Assembly: GCF_006345805.1 (NCBI RefSeq)
Contig: NC_042997.1
Location: 75,330,001-75,394,000, forward strand
Length of the DNA stretch: 64,000 bases
Direction: 5' to 3'
Source of the DNA: Octopus sinensis
Taxonomy: Eukaryota
In this document: positions 1,201 through 60,200 of the stretch, in pieces
Layout: each line of letters opens with the position of its first letter
Numbering within the stretch: the stretch's first letter is position 1
Position numbers and translations under genes: made by a program
The notes under the pieces: model-generated
The model's database searches: none
Told to the model about the DNA's origin: nothing
The model's input: the letters and a program-made list of their open reading frames with translations, nothing else

Positions 1201-4200
1201 TCTGACTTCAAACCTATGGCCCGAGGATCTCGCTGTCACTGTCCCAGCTCGCTAGGCCATGGCAGATGAACTTCATGCTTAAAGGGTGGGGCCAGTTTGC
1301 GTGCACTGCACTTCACTTTAAAAATCTCCCTAGTGCAGGCCAAAGGACATGTCCATGTTCTGTGACCAGCCATCCTAAAAGCCCTGCAGCGATGGGCAAG
1401 GGGTGAATGCAGCAGGTGGAAGATGTCACTGGAAGCCGTAGTCTCAACCCTACATGTAGGCGGCTCAGGACTTTGGTTGCCTGGTTATCGACCCGGAGGC
1501 GACGACACCACTCAGCAACATCCTGAGTGACCAGGCAGCCCTATTTAGGGAGAGCACTGCCTGCTCAACATGGAGAGGGGCGGTAGAAAAGGTTCACCTA
1601 AACAAAGCTCGTCTCCTCTATACCCAGTTGGCTAACCATGGTCAACGGGCATCTTCAGAGCAGTCGAACAAACATGGAAACAAAACCGAAGAAAAGTAAG
1701 CAGGAGTTGAAAGTTGCCTGCTGGAATGTCAGGACCATACTTAACAAGGCTGACAGCAGCCTCCCGGAACGTCGTTCGGCTCTCATAGTCCATGAACTCT
1801 CCTGTCTCAACATTGATATAGCAGCTCTCAGCGAGGTCCGCTTCGCTGAAGAGGGCAGCCTCAAAGAACACGGCGCTGGCTACACCCTCTTCTGGTCCGG
1901 AAAACCATCATCTGAAAAGCGTGTGTCGGGTGTAGGACTCATGGTGAGGAATTCCATCACCTCCAAACTGGAAACGTTACCCACGGGCCACTCGGACCGC
2001 ATCATATCCATGCGCCTACCACTAGAGAGCAAACAACATCTCACTCTCTTCAGTGTTTATGCTCCAACTCTACTGGCAGATCCCGCAGACAAAGACAGCT
2101 TCTATTCTGATCTGCGCAGACTCTTGAACAACACCCCTGCAAACGACAAGATCCTGATCCTTGGCGACTTCAACGCAAGAGTTGGGAAGGACTCTGAGGC
2201 TTGGAAAGGAGTCCTTGGAAGACACGACGTTGGTGGCCGTAATGACAATGGGCACCTCCTGCTCGAGTTCTGCACAGAGCACCAACTTGCTATTACCAAC
2301 ACAATGTTCCAACAGAAAGATCGTCTGAAAACAACTTGGATGCATCCCTGGTCCAAACATTGGCATCTACTTGACTATGTGCTTGTGCGCCAGCGGGACC
2401 TGAAAGACGTTCTACACACAAGAGTGATGCCCAGTGCAGAGTGCCACACTGACCATCGCCTTGTCGGCTGCAACTCAAACTGCAGTTCCAACCCAAACCC
2501 AAGAAGAAAGGTAACCCCATAAAGAAACTCAATGTCGACAGCTTGTGCCGGGAGGAAGTGAAAATCAAGTTCCAAGCAAACCTGCAGCAAAGACTAGACG
2601 AATCCTCCTGCACTGATGACACCACCCTAGACACCTTGTGGGAGAACCTGAAATCAGCCATCCTTAAGACATCTATGGAAGTTCTTGGGCACACAAAGAA
2701 AAAAAACAAGGACTGGTTCGATGAAAATGACGAGGAGATCCAGGAATTACTAGCAAGGAAGAGGGCAGCTTATCAGGCCCACCTCGCACAACCAGCCTGT
2801 CTTGTGAAGAAAACTCCCTTTCGGCACGCATGCCGCACCCTGCAGCAAAAACTGAGAGAAATGCAGAACGAGTGGTGGGACCACCTGGCACGGAGAACCC
2901 AGCTGTGCGCTGACCTTGGAGACTATAGAGGCTTCTATGAGGCTCTGAAAGCAGTGTATGACCCCACCCACCTGGTCCAGAGTCCTCTACGCAGTTCAGA
3001 TGGACAGGACCTCCTCACCGATAACACCTCCATCCTCGCTCGCTGGTCTGAGCACTTCCAAAGCCTCTTCAGTGCTAACCGTACCGTACAGGATGCTGTC
3101 ATCCTTCGCATTCCTCAACTTCCACTCAAAGAGGAGCTCAACAAACCACCCACCCTCGAAGAAACGATTGAAGCCATAGGACAACTCAAGAGTTGCAAAG
3201 CAGCAGGAGTTGATGGCATCCCACCAGAAATCTGGAAGAATGGAGGTCCAATGCTCCATGACAAGCTCCATGATTTTCTTGTCTGCTGCTGGGACCAGAG
3301 TAAGCTGCCACAGGATCTTCGCGATGCCATCATCATAACCTTGTACAAGAACAAGGGTGAAAAGTCTGACTGCTCCAACTACCAGGGAATCACCCTACTC
3401 TCCATCACCGGCAAAGTACTTGCCAGGATCCTGCTCAATAGGCTAGTACCAACCATCACTGAAGAAAACCTCCCCGAGAACCAGTGTGGCTTCAGAGCCA
3501 ACAGAGGCACAATGGATATGGTGTTTGTCCTCCGCCAACTCCAGGAGAAGTGCCAAGAACAAAACAGCGGACTCTATGCTACTTTCATCGACCTTACAAA
3601 AGCATTTGACACAGTGAGCAGGACAGGACTATGGCTCATCCTGAAACGACTTGGCTGTCCCACCAAGTTTCTACAGATGGTGATCCAGCTGCATGAGAAT
3701 CAGCGTGGTCAGATCGGACTCAATGCTGACCTGTCGGAGCCCTTCCTATTTCCAAAGGTATGAAGCAGGGTTGCGTCCTGGCACCGACTCTCTTCAGCAT
3801 CTTCTTCAGCATGATGATCAAGCATGCAACTGAAGATATGGAGGATGAGGATGGGGTGTATGTTAGGTATCGTCTGGATGGCAGTCTCTTCAATCTATGG
3901 CACCTCCAAGCCCATACTAAGATCCAGGAGAGGTTGATTTGAGACCTTCTCTTCGCAGACGATGCTGTCCTTGTCGCCCACATAGAGCGAGCTCTGCAGC
4001 GCATCACGTCCTTCTTTGCAGATGCCTCACAGCTCTTTGGCCTGGAGGTCAGCCTCAAGAAGACGGAGGTGCTTCACCAACCTACACCCCAAGAAGAATA
4101 CCGCCCACCCCACATCACTATCTGCGGTACTGAACTGAACTCAACACAGCAATTTTCATACCTGGGCTGCATCATCTCATCCGATGCAAGGATCGACAAG

Positions 4201-4932
4201 GAAATTAACAATAGACTTTCTAAGGCAAATAGCTCCTTTGGCAGATTGTACAAATGTGTTTGGCACAATGGTGGCCTGAAGAACAAAACAAAGATCAGTG
4301 TCTACAGGTCAGTGGTTCTCACCACTCTTCTCTATGGCTCAGAGACCTGGATCACTTACCGCAGTCACATCCGTCTCCTTGAGCGCTTCCACCAGCGATG
4401 TCTCCGCACCATCCTCAACATTCACTGGAGTGACTTCGTCACAAACATTGAAATCTTGGAGTGGGCCGAGATCCCCAGCATTGAAGCCACGCTACTGAAG
4501 TACCACCTCCGATGGGCAGGGCATGTCTCCAGAATGGAGAACCATCGCCTTCCAAAGATTGCCCTGTTTGGCGAACTCTCCACCGGCCACCGAGTGAGAG
4601 GAGCTCCGAGGAAGCGCTACAAAGACTGCCTCAAGAAGTCTCTAACAGCTTGTCAAATTAACCACCAATGCTGGTCAGACCTGGCTGCGGACCGTGATGT
4701 CTGGCGCCACACGATCTTCAACGCAGTCAGCAAGTTTGAGGAACAAAAAAGAGACACACTTAAAGACAAGAGATGCAGGAGGAAGGTGCAAGCCGCCTCT
4801 GACACCACACCAGATGTTACCTTCATCTGAGACCTGCCTTTCCCATATTGGAATTCTCAGTCATGAGCGTGCATGCACGCGACGTGGACAGCCTTCATGA
4901 TCTTCCTTCGCAAAGCCAAGCCATAATAATAA
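1201..4932 (+). mobile_element. Near full-length RTE (BovB-like) LINE, APE-RT, disabled
   Basis: APE motifs (ACWNVRT, AALSEVR, LGDFNARVG, HLLDYVLV, TDHRLV) in 1638..2522; RT (QCGFR, FIDLTKAFDTV, KQGCVLAPTLF, LFADD) and C-terminus (LLYGSETW, LRWAGHV, RKRYKD) in shifted frames; frameshifts near 2480 and 3745, CGA>TGA stop at 3940; tail GCCAAGCC(ATA)n. Confidence 0.93.
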
Positions 4933-11196: not shown

Positions 11197-11683
11197 GTAA
11201 GTAGCAAACACTTATATATTTTGACTTCTTTGTTTTACTCTCTCTAGAATCCAAATAAATTGGCATTCAAACAAGGATACCTATAACAAGTATTCCTTAT
11301 ATATCTGGGGTTGCACAATGAGCAAACACTCCACACATATTCATAAACAAATTTGAGCATGTGTGGGGAGAATACAATTTTGTATGTATCTAATTTAATG
11401 CTTTCAGCTTTCAGTGTTAGTTAATTTTCATTCTTATATAGTAGCATTGGTATATTATTTGTCAAGTCTTAAACTAATTTTATAGTTTGACTGAATTCAT
11501 GAATAGTTGTCAGCTGGTTTTCTAGTTGCATATTGCTATCCTATAAATGGATTTAAGTCATCCATACAGAGATGATTCAAATCTGTTAGAATGTATTAAG
11601 AATTCAGTTCTATATTTAAGGGATGAGGAATTCTATACATTATTTACATTTAATGGATATTTGTCCTCATCTTGTTTGTTGTT

Positions 11684-11729
11684 AACACAACGTTTTGGCT
11701 GATATACCCTCCAGTCTTCTTCAGGTGTC
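11684..11729 (-). ncRNA. Type I minimal hammerhead ribozyme, probably inactive (G12>A)
   Basis: Minus strand GACAC-CTGAAGA-A-GACTG-N10-CAGCC-AAAA-CG-TT-GTGTT; conserved GAAA reads AAAA. Confidence 0.65.
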
Positions 11730-12079
11730 TTGCGGAAATATCGAACCTGGGTTCTCATTCCTAAGGTATTTTTCATTGTTATTGTTGTTGCTGTTGCTGC
11801 TACTGTTGTTGCCACTGCTACTGTTGCTGCTGCTGCTGCTGTTGTTGTTGTTGTTCGGGTCACTGCATGGAATCCAACTCGGAATCTTGGGGTTAGTAGT
11901 CCACGCTCTTAACCACTACGCCATATGCCTGTGGGTATAATGCATAGTAGTTAAGTGCGCGGGCTACTAACCTCAAGATTCTGAGTTGGATTCCATGCAG
12001 TAACCTGAACACTAATAATAATAATAATAACATCGAAAAATACCTTAGGAATGAGAACCCACGTTCGAAATTTCTGCAA

Positions 12080-12125
12080 GACACCTGATGAAGGCTGGAG
12101 GGTATATCAGCCGAAACGTTGTGTT
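12080..12125 (+). ncRNA. Type I minimal hammerhead ribozyme (PLE type)
   Basis: Stem I GACAC(12080-84)/GTGTT(12121-25); core CTGATGA 12085-91 plus extra A; stem II GGCTG/CAGCC; GAAA 12113-16; palindromic ACGT stem III; predicted cleavage after GUU at 12120. Confidence 0.78.
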
Positions 12126-12214
12126 AACAACAAACAAGATGAGAACAAATATCATTGAATGTAAATATTAAGAATTATTATGTACATCATTGTTTGCATT
12201 CTCACTGTTGTATG

Positions 12215-25467: not shown

Positions 25468-26760
25468 GTAGCAATGACAGCACTCTGATAGATAGTGGAG
25501 AATCAGGGGTTATTCCTATAGTTAATAGTGACGTAGTGGAAAATAGAGTAGTAAGCGGCTGCAGGTCTCGGAACGAATATAGTGTCAGGAACGCAGTTCT
25601 AATTTCAGAAACCAATCCTAGCAGATTAAGATTCACGTCGGCGAACTCCAAGATCAAAAACGCCGTCTACCAATGCAAGGTTTACACGGACTCAGATGCC
25701 TTCACTTATGTAGGGGCATCATCCTCAAGATTGTCTTTGCGTGTCTCCAACCATTACGCAACTTTTCGGGACGTGAACAAGCGCCAGACCACGGGACTCA
25801 GTAAGCTAATATGGCGACTGAAGGATGCGAACTTAAGCTATAGGTGGGATGGTCAATTTTGTCGGTGGCCTCCCATTTGATAGGGGCAGAAGACAGTTCA
25901 ACCTTTGTGTCTCCGAACTCTTCCATATTTGTTTGCCAGAGCCGGATGGTAAACGGGCTCTTACAGTCGGCTTTTCGATACCCCCATTGGCGGCGTTACA
26001 CTTATCTGGCCTTTAAATAGCGTTTATAAATAATACCGGCACCCATAGCCCTTGGTAACAAATTCTGAAATAGCCTTTAAGATATCTACGATTGACCACT
26101 GCAAGGGGAATTACTCCTGTAAGACAAACGGGGCTTGGGTTTTTCACAGCGGGGGGTTTCCTTGACAAGGCAGGCTTAGATGAACACACACACACATAAA
26201 ACATAATATATATATAAAATTTTTTTATTTTTTTCTTTCTGCCACCCAACGGTTATCAGAGCAGTAGCCACTGACAGCCGAACGATCAAACGCACACACG
26301 TACACAAAAAATGTTTTCTACCCCTACGCCAACACCACATATATAGAACAGTATACACACACACACGTCTCTAAGTAGATTTTTCTCGCCACTTATAAAA
26401 CATCCAATTTCTTTAAATAGTCAGAACTTTTATTCTCCGTCACAAGAACATCTATACACCCTCACCCACATGTGACCGATGCCTGACCCGTTGAATTCTT
26501 CAGCCACCGGTTCTCAACATACACTGATAAACAGTTTCGCCATGGGCTCTTAGGAGCACAGTTCGATTGTTTTTTGCTCCGCCTCTGTTCTGTTTTTGTT
26601 TTTCCAACGGATTTCCTTTTTCTTCCTGAAGAGAAAGACACAATATGGTCCCATTATTCAATCGGATTTTGGTAATTTGTGCCTTTCGAAACACGTGTAT
26701 GAATGAAATAAAACGATTTCTGTTCAATCTGCGTTCAGCTCCATTTCTTCAATTCCCAAT
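25468..26760 (+). mobile_element. Penelope-like element 3' end: GIY-YIG endonuclease remnant and hammerhead-bearing terminal region
   Basis: NAVYQCKV..FTYVGAS..LSLRVSNHYATFR..TTGLSKLIWRLK..W (25650-25850); hammerhead at 26619-26708. The link between the two parts is inferred. Confidence 0.75.
26619..26708 (+). ncRNA. Type I hammerhead ribozyme with long stem II
   Basis: CTGAAGA 26626-32; stem II GAAAGACACAA/TTGTGCCTTTC (10/11 bp); GAAA 26688-91; palindromic stem III ACACGTGT; GUA triplet ending 26699; imperfect stem I. Confidence 0.7.
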
Positions 26761-27500: not shown

Positions 27501-27748
27501 GATTATATATTATATTTTTCATTTATACTTAATTATTTAAAAGTATTATTTTTTATATTTTAAAATTTTGATTTTTTAGATTGGTAGTCCACCTGAAGAT
27601 TGTCGATCAAGACAAGAAACGATTGTAGTGGCGGTTTTTTGACTATTTATTAATTTTATGTATTGATTAAGTCTTTCCTTGTTTGTTTTGCAAAATAGTG
27701 GTTTTGTCTCAAATAATATTTTATATATATATTTATATAAATATATAT

Positions 27749-57202: not shown

Positions 57203-60200
57203 GTTGAGAGAGTTGGTATGTGAAAGCACGTGGTTGGATGTATAAAAGACAAAAAAGATGAAAAAACTAAAGAAGGCTTGTGTTATATGGTTAAAGAATA
57301 TATTTAAATCATTATGTTAGAAAAATATAAAATTTTGCATGGTTTTTGGAGAAATAAGTGGTTTTGTATTTTCTTTTCAAATTTCTCTAATTTCTTTACC
57401 TATATTGTATCATGTCTTCGCTATGTTGTGAAATATGGAGTTCCAGACAGGAGAGGTAATCAGGGATTTTTTTCCAGTATAAGGGACATAATCAAAAATA
57501 TTGGGAATGACTAGACTTGATTAATTTAACATGAGTTGGTTTAGAAGGAATAGAATGTTACAAGTGGTTAGGTTTTGCTTTATATTTTTTTCAATGAGGT
57601 GAGTTTCCTTATTTAAAAATGTTAGAAATTATATTTTTCAATAAGGTTTCCTTATTTAATCTTACTTGTGTTGGTGTTCCAATGGCACATTGATAAAATG
57701 GAAAGATTACAATTTGTGGTAGCAGTTGCTTTGCACATTTCTCAGTATATTCACTAAAGGGTATCATTCTGCATTCTAGGAATGCAATCTGCTGTCAATA
57801 CAGAGTGCATCTGCGTCTGAGCGATAATCCCGTGGACCCTATGTAGTTTTGGTGGCAGCCCGAGCATCTTATAACATAAATCAGGTTTTCTAAAGCACAA
57901 GTAAAGTCAGATTTGATTTCGAATTTTTGTCCCTCTTTGAAATGGAATTCTGATCCTTCTAGATGGTTTGGACATGTTACACAATTTGGTCTACCACATT
58001 TTTTAACTTTTGCATCCGTTATTTTAGAAAATAAATTTGCCTTGGTGAGGATCTTTTTTAGTGATTTCGGTTGTTCGTAGCTTTTAATGATTTTATGTAT
58101 GTGTAAACTTTCCTTTAATTTGGGATCCTTATGTAGCATTGGTAAGTTTTGGGTGATGATGGTGAAGGCTTCTTTGTTTCTGGGGTTGTATGTAGATATG
58201 TACGGCAGTATTTTTGGGGAAGGTGTGTTGCTGTGTTGAACTTTTCTTAAGGTTTCTATGTCAATTTGTGTTGCACGTCTGATTCGATCCTCTATAAGTT
58301 GAACTGGGTAGTGTCTGTCAATTAGGGTGCTTTTGAGTTCTTGCAGTCTAAAGTCTTTGGTATTTTGTTCTGATACTATTGTGCATATCCTTCTTGCAAG
58401 GTTGAAGGGGATGTTTGTTTTGGTGTCTTGGGTGGCATGATATTAGTAGATATTGTTTGGCGTCTGTGGTTTTGTAAAATATGTCCGTTTCTATTCTTAG
58501 GTTTATTTTTTTAATCAGTGTATCTAAGAATGGAAGCTCCCTTTGGTTGTACTCTATTGTGAACTGTATGTTTGGGTTGATGCTGTTCAATAGTCTTTTG
58601 AATTCCAGGAGTTTATCTGTATTTTCATTCCAGAGTATGAAACAGTTGTCTAGGAATCTTTTCCAATTTTCTTTTATGTATTGGGAAAGGGGGTTTCCAA
58701 AGGTAGGTAAAGATTCCCGGTATACTATTACCTCCAGGTAGCCCATTGTTAGGTTCACAATGACTGGTGCTGCCCTAGTACCCATAGCAATTCCAGATTT
58801 TTGTCGGTAAAACATATTGTCAAACATGAAGTGGTTATTTTGTAGGATGAATTCAACCGATTTAGTTATGAATTCTTTACTGATCCTTTTTGGTATTTCT
58901 TCCGGAAATTGGTCCAGCCAGAACTGAATTGCCTCTAGCCCGTAATTATGAGGTATACTGGTATATAAATTAACTACATCAAATGAAACCATGATTGTTT
59001 CTTCCTTGGTTTTTTTTGGAAGCTGATTTAACATATCCAAGTCATCTCTGATATGGCTATTGATGTGTTTAAGGAAGGGTTTCAGGAGGATGTCCATAAA
59101 TAGACTTAGTCTGTGTTTCACAGGCTGGGCCAGTTACAATGGGTTGTAGTTTTAGGTCCCCCGGGCTTGGTGTATGTATGTACGTCTTTGGTGATTTTTT
59201 AATGGTTTCATTTATAATCTGGCTTTTGTGTATTTTTGGTAGACCATAGAAAAGGCTAGGTTTGCATTTAAAGTTTGTTAGAAAGTCAATCTCTTTGGTT
59301 GTCAGTTCATTTCCATGGGTTTTAATTAGTGAGGACAGAGTTTTCATTATTTTTTGCAGGGAGTAGTTCGTGATTTTTTCATAATGTTGACTGTCATCAA
59401 CCATGGAGATTACTAGATTTCTATAGTATAATGTGTCCATTATTACAACTGTACTTCCTTTATCTGCTTCCTTAATCGTTATCTCTTCATTTTGAAGTTC
59501 TGTTAGTTCCTTCCATTGTGCAGTGCTAAAGTTTGATTTAACTGTCTGTTTATGCATAGAGTGGTAGGGAAAGTTCTCAATGTGGTTGCAGAATTCATCA
59601 AGATTTTTATTTCTTCCTTTGTGGGGGATGTGTTCACTTTTGTTTTTGACTAGTGAGTCATCTTCAGTATTGTAATTGGTTAATGCTTCTGTGAGTCTTA
59701 ATTTTCTACAGAATTCTATTATACTGTCCTTCACTTCATTTTGATTGACTCTGCATGGAGTTGGGGTGAATTTTAGCCCTTTTGAGAGGATGTCTATTTT
59801 TATGTTTGAAAGAGGTTTAGTTGAGAGGTTAATTATCTTCAGTTTTTCCTGATCACCAGGTTCCAAACTGTGTCCTTGTGTCTCTGGTCTGGGGCTAAAA
59901 AATGTAGGTTGTAATTTTGTTTGCATGAGTTGTCTTTGGGGGATGTATGGGACTGGTCCAGGGGAATGATGGTATTGTTGCCTCCGTTTGCTATGTGTGT
60001 GTGGGTGACTATGGGTGTTTTAGTTTGTGATGTGTATAACATTTCTATATGTGATATATTTTTGTTTTGAATTTCTTGTATGCGTGATGTTTCTTGACCT
60101 CGTGTTATTTTGTGCTGTTCTTGTATTCAGTGGGGACCAGTAATTTTGGGTCATGGGGTAGTAGTGACTGGTATGTGGTGTGCTTCTTATCCTAGTGTTG

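What the first reader, a model, noticed from the sequence alone, without database searches (positions are those of the whole stretch)
11594..12176. Palindromic 'double SINE': two divergent tRNA-derived Pol III heads, each followed by a Penelope-type hammerhead ribozyme, inside one TSD
Seen: inverted arms meeting at GCCATATGCC-TGTG-GGTATA (centre ~11930). Reading outward, each arm has a tRNA-like head (A box TGGCGTAGTGG, anticodon-like GGGCT-ACT-AACC, B-box-like GAGTTGGATTCC), a trinucleotide spacer, then a hammerhead. An 11-bp direct repeat TATTAAGAATT flanks the whole unit, so it inserted as one palindrome. The left arm carries ~37 extra terminal bases. Both arms share the same non-consensus G in the B box. 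Known: minimal type I hammerheads with palindromic ACGU stem III mark PLE pseudo-LTRs and cleave as dimers; PLEs often insert as inverted, asymmetric termini; classical SINEs borrow LINE tails. Inference: a non-autonomous Pol III-driven, ribozyme-processed retroelement mobilised by PLE RT/GIY-YIG (a PLE-dependent SINE or retrozyme-like system). I cannot check whether it is already catalogued.
Basis: partly seen in the sequence, partly recalled or inferred. Interest (0 to 1): 0.82.

Follow-up and report, generated by a model that had tools for sequence, protein, structure and literature searches.

The report
Penelope retrotransposon with a tRNA-type promoter
The palindrome is real, but it is two back-to-back copies of the end of a protein-coding Penelope-type jumping gene rather than a separate SINE, and that jumping gene carries a tRNA-like promoter and lacks the stop signal of RNA polymerase III over its whole length, so it is likely read by that enzyme, which normally makes only short non-coding RNAs (untested).

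Summary
Observation mostly confirmed: two inverted arms inside an 11-bp target duplication, one arm 37 nt longer.

The interpretation changes. The 272-nt arm is the terminal repeat (pLTR) of an autonomous Penelope/Poseidon-type element. Its tRNA-like head lies 29 nt after the endonuclease stop codon, and its hammerhead and tail encode the first ~50 residues of an 835-codon RT-endonuclease frame. Short copies share allele frequencies with ORF-linked copies, so no separate SINE lineage shows. Head-to-head arms, a one-sided tail, ~12-bp duplications and a central palindrome are published Penelope traits, and 11 of 87 sampled insertions look like this one. No element end maps to the ribozyme cut site.

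What remains unusual: canonical A and B boxes; 5' ends piling up at the head (3%/nt against 0.1-0.6 elsewhere); and no TTTT on the sense strand of the 2,655-nt majority sequence (about 3-5 expected; 1 of 71 relatives lacks it). This suggests a protein-coding retrotransposon transcribed by Pol III, which I did not find in print. It is inferred from DNA only; Repbase and Dfam could not be searched.

The parts
11594..11604 (+). Left target-site duplication, 11 bp
   Evidence: Exact repeat of 12166-12176 (family D16); the family's commonest length is 12
11605..11929 (-). Left arm: complete pLTR unit (unit positions 2-272) with an expanded microsatellite
   Evidence: Alignment to the family majority
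11605..11640 (-). One-sided 'tail' (unit 237-272): the stretch between the two inferred RT start sites; coding sequence of the element's ORF
   Evidence: runs on into the ORF in L230, L165, L187 and in 12 of 30 further loci
11684..11729 (-). Left minimal type I hammerhead; core broken by G-to-A at 11696
11605..11758 (-). Decayed 5' end of the Penelope ORF (ATG at 11758)
   Evidence: Frame open in the family majority
11782..11855 (-). CAA/CAG trinucleotide spacer, upstream of the ATG
11858..11930 (-). Left tRNA-like head; A box 11923-11913 (intact), B box 11878-11870 (one substitution)
11920..11941 (.). Central junction, a decayed copy of the family's 22-nt palindromic head-to-head joint built on a 12-nt palindrome that spans the head's first base
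   Evidence: 328 exact sites genome-wide; the palindrome is part of the autonomous element
11933..12005 (+). Right tRNA-like head; A box 11940-11950 (decayed), B box 11985-11993 (same substitution as left)
12008..12031 (+). AAT spacer
12051..12155 (+). 5' end of the Penelope ORF (35 codons, then a 1-nt deletion)
   Evidence: 12 of 20 residues identical to the N-terminus of intact relative P0003, E=3e-6
12080..12125 (+). Right minimal type I hammerhead, core intact, predicted cut after 12120, inside the ORF
   Evidence: Motif scan; not scored by Rfam; cleavage untested
11933..12167 (+). Right arm: pLTR unit 1-236, no tail
   Evidence: 92% identical to the family majority
12166..12176 (+). Right target-site duplication

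Best explanation
This is one insertion of two head-to-head terminal repeats of a protein-coding Penelope/Poseidon-type retrotransposon, likely made when the element's enzyme extended both cut target strands from two internal start sites and ran off the 5' end of an RNA that likely begins at the tRNA-like head. Shown: the unit is the element's pLTR and encodes the start of its 835-codon RT/GIY-YIG frame; insertions have two outward-facing 3' ends, only one with the tail; 5' ends pile up at the head. Inferred: (1) the A/B boxes are an internal Pol III promoter starting RNA about 5 nt before the head; (2) with no TTTT on the sense strand, Pol III would read on through the ORF; (3) RT starting in the first pLTR of that RNA gives the abundant 272-nt copies, and RT starting in the second gives long copies; (4) when both cDNAs reach the RNA's 5' end, the 12-nt palindrome there would let them pair and be joined, giving the full palindrome; otherwise they join at short chance matches and one arm is truncated; (5) the hammerhead does not set the ends. 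How an uncapped RNA would be translated is unexplained.
For: Head directly after the endonuclease in 26 of 30 loci picked by endonuclease DNA alone; four of these are one duplicated insertion and one is the query. Tail runs into the ORF. One 835-codon frame from the unit's ATG, 57% identical to P0003 residues 18-846. Inverted arm in 54 of 87 insertions; 41 of these end at unit 237-254 and none at 272. 5' ends: 36 of 55 arms at risk stop in -6..+15, 3.0%/nt, against 0.1-0.6%/nt elsewhere. Head is the only hit of a tRNA profile in 2.6 kb, E=1.5e-5, with boxes at tRNA spacing. No TTTT in 2,655 nt: base shuffle 4.6 (P=0.011), synonymous shuffle 2.9 (P=0.025), 5.3 expected from 28 composition-matched relatives; 1 of 71 related ORFs has none; Neptune family in the same genome 6 against 6.0. 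Short and ORF-linked copies share allele frequencies (Fisher p 0.29-1.0), and 69 of 72 tails differ in length by multiples of 9 nt. A Poseidon enzyme cuts and extends both strands and starts at two internal sites (PMC11167929).
Against: No transcript start, cap state or polymerase was measured. The TTTT test was made after seeing the absence, and it weakens under Markov nulls (P=0.05 and 0.17). No single genomic copy running from head through the whole ORF was seen; none of the 12 tail-to-ORF loci kept a head, so the transcript is a majority reconstruction (depth 12-78). The palindrome blurs the 5' end by several bases. Arms of one insertion agree more than chance but not fully (9 of 42 pairs differ at site 157), which no single-template model explains cleanly. 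The known Penelope promoter is a TATA-less, LINE-like one (PMC2377424), and Pol III is held to be too poorly processive for autonomous elements (PMC10886601).
Confidence: 0.65

Rival explanations
1. Same element and same insertion route, but the ORF-bearing RNA is made by Pol II. The tRNA-like stretch is a captured SINE head that is a relic or drives only short RNAs; the 5' wall marks a Pol II start or an RT stall at the small palindrome; the lack of TTTT is chance or base composition.
For: D. virilis Penelope uses a TATA-less internal promoter in its pLTR (PMC2377424, passages), and A. vaga pLTRs also start with palindromes (PMC3846280, passages). One relative, L325, has no TTTT in 1.9 kb of ORF and no tRNA head. 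Markov-2 null gives P=0.17. A capped RNA solves translation.
Against: Both boxes are canonical in the majority sequence and the wall sits at a pre-tRNA-like distance from the A box. Most 5' ends lie beyond the palindrome's 3' base, where a stall would be expected. L325's own pLTR has several TTTT runs; all 20 relatives covered from ORF to hammerhead have 2-23 runs.
Confidence: 0.3
2. One reading: the short unit is an independent, non-autonomous SINE with its own master copies, mobilised in trans by the Penelope enzyme.
For: Thousands of short copies (3,492 exact tail matches); most head-bearing arms start at the head (51 of 63); every intact solo unit holds both boxes and both start sites; 328 exact head-to-head joints.
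Against: The same head is built into ORF-bearing copies (390 exact spacer-head joints). No allele or indel private to short copies (largest recurrent indel 3 of about 99 copies), same divergence 4.8% against 5.3%. In the anole element the RNA needed extends beyond the start sites (PMC11167929), which solo units would lack (inference).
Confidence: 0.12
3. The second arm is a fold-back copy: one cDNA (or an antisense RNA, as proposed for rotifer Penelopes) self-primes at the palindrome and copies itself.
For: Arms share subfamily alleles (69 of 71 at site 228 against 48 expected) and rare variants (21 against 6.5). Self-priming was proposed from such palindromes (PMC3846280, passages).
Against: Fold-back from the tail-bearing strand fixes the two central letters relative to the tail side; both orders occur (5 against 6; 2 against 3). 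About a fifth of arm pairs differ at linked subfamily sites. Many insertions have one arm of 50-150 nt and the other of 1-2 kb.
Confidence: 0.15
4. Two independent insertions that happen to lie head to head.
For: The family is abundant and the two spacers differ.
Against: One duplication flanks both arms and none lies between them; the form recurs in 11 of 87 insertions.
Confidence: 0.01

Closest known systems
Endonuclease-bearing Penelope-like elements, Penelope/Poseidon clade (PMC3846280, PMC8557442, PMC2377424: passages; PMC11167929: parts 1-2 of 4)
   Same: Single RT plus C-terminal GIY-YIG ORF starting inside the pLTR; hammerhead overlapping the ORF start; inverted 5'-truncated arm; 30-40-nt tail on one side; palindrome at the inverted joint; target duplication; promoter expected in the pLTR.
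   Different: The pLTR starts with a tRNA-derived A/B-box module instead of a TATA-less or TATA/Inr promoter; sense strand free of TTTT; ORF-less pLTR pairs make up most insertions.
Sm-alpha / Sj-alpha SINE-like elements of schistosomes (seen only through the review PMC6765202, passages)
   Same: Pol III-type promoter followed by a hammerhead in a short repeat.
   Different: Described as non-coding, tandem and ribozyme-liberated; here the unit is part of a coding element, arranged head to head, and its ends are not at the cut site.
TRIMp3 elements Cassandra, Helenus, Ajax (PMC10886601, passages)
   Same: A small-RNA-derived Pol III promoter built into a terminal repeat, probably by SINE capture.
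   Different: They are non-autonomous LTR elements of 0.3-1.3 kb; that paper argues their autonomous partners must use Pol II. Here the promoter sits in the autonomous element.
Animal non-LTR retrozymes (bioRxiv 10.64898/2026.07.22.740005, parts 1-3 of 5)
   Same: Type I hammerhead, derived from Penelope pLTRs.
   Different: Defined by head-to-tail tandem units, each with a hammerhead; this is a head-to-head pair.
Octopus tRNA-derived SINEs OK, OR1, OR2 (Ohshima and Okada 1994; title seen in reference lists, family names partly recalled)
   Same: tRNA-related head; the closest of 27 distinct tRNAs sampled here was tRNA-Arg(TCT).
   Different: Sequences not available here, so identity with this head was not tested; OR2 is listed as a CORE SINE (PMC4758252, passage).

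Membership tests
EN+ Penelope-like element | Single ORF with PLE-type RT and GIY-YIG endonuclease | tested here: met
   835-codon frame with DKG, YGLPK, YVDD and YKGET motifs; homologs carry PF00078, some PF01541. A direct Pfam scan of two decayed copies gave no family.
EN+ Penelope-like element | pLTR that includes the ORF start | tested here: met
EN+ Penelope-like element | Inverted 5'-truncated arm, one-sided 30-40-nt tail, target duplication | tested here: met
   54 of 87 with inverted arm, none with two tails; 40 of 87 with a repeat of 10 nt or more
EN+ Penelope-like element | Hammerhead motif in the pLTR | tested here: met
   Core intact in the majority sequence and in 153 of 256 arms; not more conserved than its flanks
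Penelope/Poseidon clade | C-terminal endonuclease without the Neptune/Nematis zinc-finger linker | tested here: met
   Linker read, against the cysteine-rich linker of L037/L038
Penelope/Poseidon clade | RT phylogeny with named references | not tested
   No named reference proteins were on hand; no tree built
SINE (tRNA-derived) | tRNA-derived head with A and B boxes | tested here: met
SINE (tRNA-derived) | Non-coding unit separate from its autonomous partner, with its own lineage | tested here: not met
   The whole unit is contiguous with the ORF on both sides; no private alleles
SINE (tRNA-derived) | Transcribed by Pol III | not testable with these tools
   No raw RNA reads were offered
Non-LTR retrozyme | Head-to-tail tandem units, each with an intact hammerhead | tested here: not met
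   Arrangement is inverted; left core broken
Non-LTR retrozyme | Unit ends set by self-cleavage, circular RNA | tested here: not met
   Ends at 237-254, 272 and the head; 5 of 118 5' ends within 186-195 against about 3 expected. Circular RNA not testable.

The most novel reading that the evidence does not exclude
An autonomous retrotransposon that captured a tRNA-type promoter and purged Pol III terminators from its whole 2.6-kb sense strand, so that Pol III makes both its protein-coding RNA and a flood of SINE-like short copies: a Pol III counterpart of the Pol I-transcribed R2 elements, and a visible intermediate between an autonomous element and a SINE.
Probability: 0.4. Interest if true: 0.85.

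Novelty: new variant of a known kind. Interest (0 to 1): 0.58.

Why it matters
Autonomous non-LTR elements are held to use Pol II and only their short parasites Pol III (PMC10886601, PMC5786205; passages). A coding element driven by Pol III would break that division and raise the question of how an uncapped 2.6-kb RNA is translated. Even if Pol II makes the RNA, the family gives thousands of two-armed insertions with a fixed 5' wall and marked alleles, so the open question of how Penelope elements form inverted ends (two primings against fold-back) becomes directly countable. It also warns that short tRNA-headed repeats annotated as SINEs may be terminal repeats of Penelope elements.

Tried and rejected
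Rfam gave no tRNA or hammerhead match in the window, five family copies or six relatives; its microRNA hits are generic hairpins. Single-strand folding of heads and hammerheads was no better than shuffles, z from -0.7 to +0.2. A GIY-YIG family search returned 30 loci of other elements, mostly one Neptune-type family, none sharing the unit; the partner turned up instead beside unit copies. One search used a mis-oriented stretch and returned an unrelated repeat; its 30 loci (L121-L150) were left out of all counts. Sequencing runs: no RNA holder listed (that query was also mis-oriented and covered mostly flank). Only contigs could be laid, which show no start, strand or level. No relative in viral contigs and no match in solved structures. 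Absence of GGGG in the majority sequence was considered as a sign of general run depletion and set aside: relatives are depleted of GGGG too (98 against 167) but enriched in TTTT (614 against 406). Simple fold-back and ribozyme-defined ends were tested and not supported. One paper (Lunse et al., dimer cleavage) was not held, so dimer cleavage rests on recall and on PMC4209133 passages. Look-ups of earlier findings by sequence and by a first word set were empty.

Full report
OBSERVATION. The window holds two inverted arms, 11605-11929 (minus) and 11933-12167 (plus), inside an exact 11-bp repeat. Each arm reads outward as tRNA-like head, trinucleotide spacer, hammerhead region and end; the left is about 37 nt longer. 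The left hammerhead has lost the G of its GAAA, and the right A box is decayed. The genome is 2.72 Gb in 13,516 contigs; its size and repeats look like an octopus (my inference and recall, not determined). Positions below are 'unit' positions, 1 being the first base of the head.

A LARGE FAMILY WITH A FIXED INSERTION PATTERN. One arm gave 3,634 first-look candidates, 40 scored. The 30-nt tail matches exactly 3,492 times, the reversed control 0 times. I took the first 90 of these by position, 87 after removing three duplicates. In 54 of 87 an inverted arm adjoins the tail-bearing arm; 41 of the 54 end at unit 237-254 and none at 272, so the tail is on one side only. A flanking repeat of 10 nt or more (one mismatch allowed) was found in 40 of 87, most often 12 nt. 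In 11 of 87 both arms reach the head without ORF sequence, as in the window; in 17 of 87 an arm runs past the head into ORF sequence. The chaining is automatic and loses arms broken by long microsatellites or later insertions, so 54 is a floor. The exact 22-nt palindromic joint occurs at 328 sites.

THE UNIT IS THE END OF AN AUTONOMOUS PENELOPE ELEMENT. Several copies had endonuclease-like sequence just upstream of the head. Of 30 loci chosen with endonuclease DNA that stopped short of the head, 26 have the head directly after it, three have it deleted with the rest of the unit present, and one breaks off after 12 bases; four of the 26 are one duplicated insertion and one is the query. The exact spacer-head joint occurs 390 times. 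On the other side the tail runs on into coding sequence in L230, L165 and L187 and in 12 of 30 loci from a targeted pattern, three of them the L230 duplicate. A majority sequence from 117 segments (median depth 12-78) is 2,655 nt long with one frame of 835 codons from the ATG at unit 119, 57% identical to residues 18-846 of the intact relative P0003; the stop lies 29 nt before the next head. The window's own right arm translates to a peptide matching P0003's N-terminus (12 of 20, E=3e-6). The linker lacks the Neptune zinc finger, which points to Penelope/Poseidon; no tree was built. Contigs from runs labelled as three other organisms bridge the endonuclease-head joint (X16, X23, X20, X7), so the fusion is not peculiar to this assembly.

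THIS ARCHITECTURE IS KNOWN. pLTRs that include the first codons, an inverted 5' arm, a 31-nt optional tail, 8-10-bp duplications and palindromes at the inverted joint are described for rotifer Penelopes (PMC3846280, passages) and summarised for all EN+ clades (PMC8557442, passages). An anole Poseidon enzyme cuts and extends both target strands, starts at two sites inside the ORF whose interval is the tail, and does not need hammerhead cleavage (PMC11167929, parts 1-2 of 4). Here too no end maps to the predicted cut after unit 188. The core is intact in 153 of 256 arms and no better conserved than its flanks, as expected after neutral decay.

NOT A SEPARATE SINE. Comparing 61 ORF-linked with 119 short head-bearing arms (the ORF-linked set was enriched by my searches, so this is no genome-wide share), four subfamily sites have the same frequencies (Fisher p 0.29, 0.44, 0.69, 1.0), divergence is 5.3% against 4.8%, and no indel recurs in more than 3 short copies. 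Tail length variants differ by multiples of 9 nt in 69 of 72 cases, keeping the frame. Of 30 loci chosen by the head alone, 25 continue into the element's body and the other five continue into the spacer and are then lost. Short copies thus look like products of the autonomous element's RNA. Solo copies acting as minor templates are not excluded.

WHAT IS UNUSUAL. The head is the only hit of a profile built from 27 distinct tRNAs of this genome (E=1.5e-5); its best pairwise score is 61 against a maximum of 46 in 241 background windows; unit numbering equals tRNA numbering, with the A box at 8 and the B box at 53; the stems are largely lost. 5' ends pile up there: 51 of 63 head-bearing arms end at -6..+13 and none between -7 and -14 (a few read-through copies with small deletions are miscounted as ends). 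The chance of ending is 3.0% per base at -6..+15 (36 of 55 arms) against 0.1-0.6 elsewhere. The sense strand of the majority sequence has 13 TTT runs and no TTTT, the metazoan Pol III terminator (established knowledge). Expected: 4.6 by base shuffle (P=0.011), 2.9 by synonymous shuffle (P=0.025), 5.3 from 28 composition-matched relatives. Among 80 related loci (the best of 534 from a scan cut off at 20 of 64 parts), 71 have more than 1.2 kb of ORF: 614 runs against 401 expected, one locus with none, and no A-plus-B-box pattern in any of the 80 (many lack the pLTR). A Neptune family in this genome has 6 against 6.0. Against this: the test was post hoc, Markov nulls give P=0.05 and 0.17, and no single copy spanning head to ORF end was seen.

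HOW THE PALINDROME FORMS (inferred). Arms of one insertion agree at subfamily sites more than random pairs: 69 of 71 against 48 expected, 45 of 54 against 30, 55 of 70 against 37, 18 of 24 against 11. Yet 9 of 42 pairs differ at a linked site, and the two central letters do not follow the tail side. Two primings on RNA from a narrow pool of sources, joined through the 5' palindrome, fit best. Fold-back in part of the cases, or later conversion between arms, is not excluded.

PRINT. Searches showed no listing describing a Penelope element with a tRNA-type promoter or a Pol III-transcribed autonomous retroelement. Nearest are Sm-alpha (via PMC6765202, passages), TRIMp3 (PMC10886601, passages) and animal retrozymes (bioRxiv 10.64898/2026.07.22.740005, parts 1-3 of 5). 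Passages of PMC4209133, PMC5786205, PMC2377424, PMC4758252, PMC6962438, PMC8967140 and PMC13282606 added nothing closer; the one supplement held for the last lists 190 Penelope-like families without sequences. Repbase, Dfam, that repeat library and Ohshima and Okada 1994 could not be seen, and the family may be catalogued there. Two earlier AI notes on other genomes call what may be this family a Penelope-driven SINE; as summarised, they do not mention the link to the ORF.

VERDICT. Real, and in its layout an ordinary Penelope insertion. The 'double SINE' reading is not supported. The promoter swap is the finding worth following: new variant of a known kind, interest 0.58; full Pol III transcription of the coding element about 0.4 likely.

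Noticed in passing
G000, loci L031-L060 and further rows: A Neptune-type Penelope-like family with several open frames of 780-883 codons, so probably young; unrelated to the unit studied. Used only as a control.
   Followed up: partly
window 57795-60019 (minus): Frameshifted Neptune-type Penelope-like copy (RT, cysteine-rich linker, endonuclease).
   Followed up: no
window 1602-4830 (plus): Near-complete LINE with endonuclease and RT in three frames.
   Followed up: no
window 25221-25880 and 27593: GIY-YIG-like fragment beside an assembly gap, and a separate hammerhead-like core motif at 27593.
   Followed up: no
L422, L432, L441, L443, L445: Internally deleted copies: 5' pLTR and a short piece of ORF joined directly to a 3' pLTR; possible raw material for non-autonomous derivatives.
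   Followed up: partly
window 11782-11855; L195: The AAT spacer upstream of the ATG turns into long CAA/CAG runs in some copies; the family seeds microsatellites.
   Followed up: no
L099, L114, L115: Other tRNA-headed repeats have inserted into the unit, in L099 and L114 at its AT-rich 9-nt repeats near the tail.
   Followed up: no
unit positions 7-15: An out-of-frame ATG followed two codons later by a stop overlaps the A box, upstream of the ORF start.
   Followed up: no
L020 minus strand 1798-3203: RT with a DNFLD-type motif and an asparagine-rich stretch next to a copy of this family; looks like a different Penelope-like clade.
   Followed up: no
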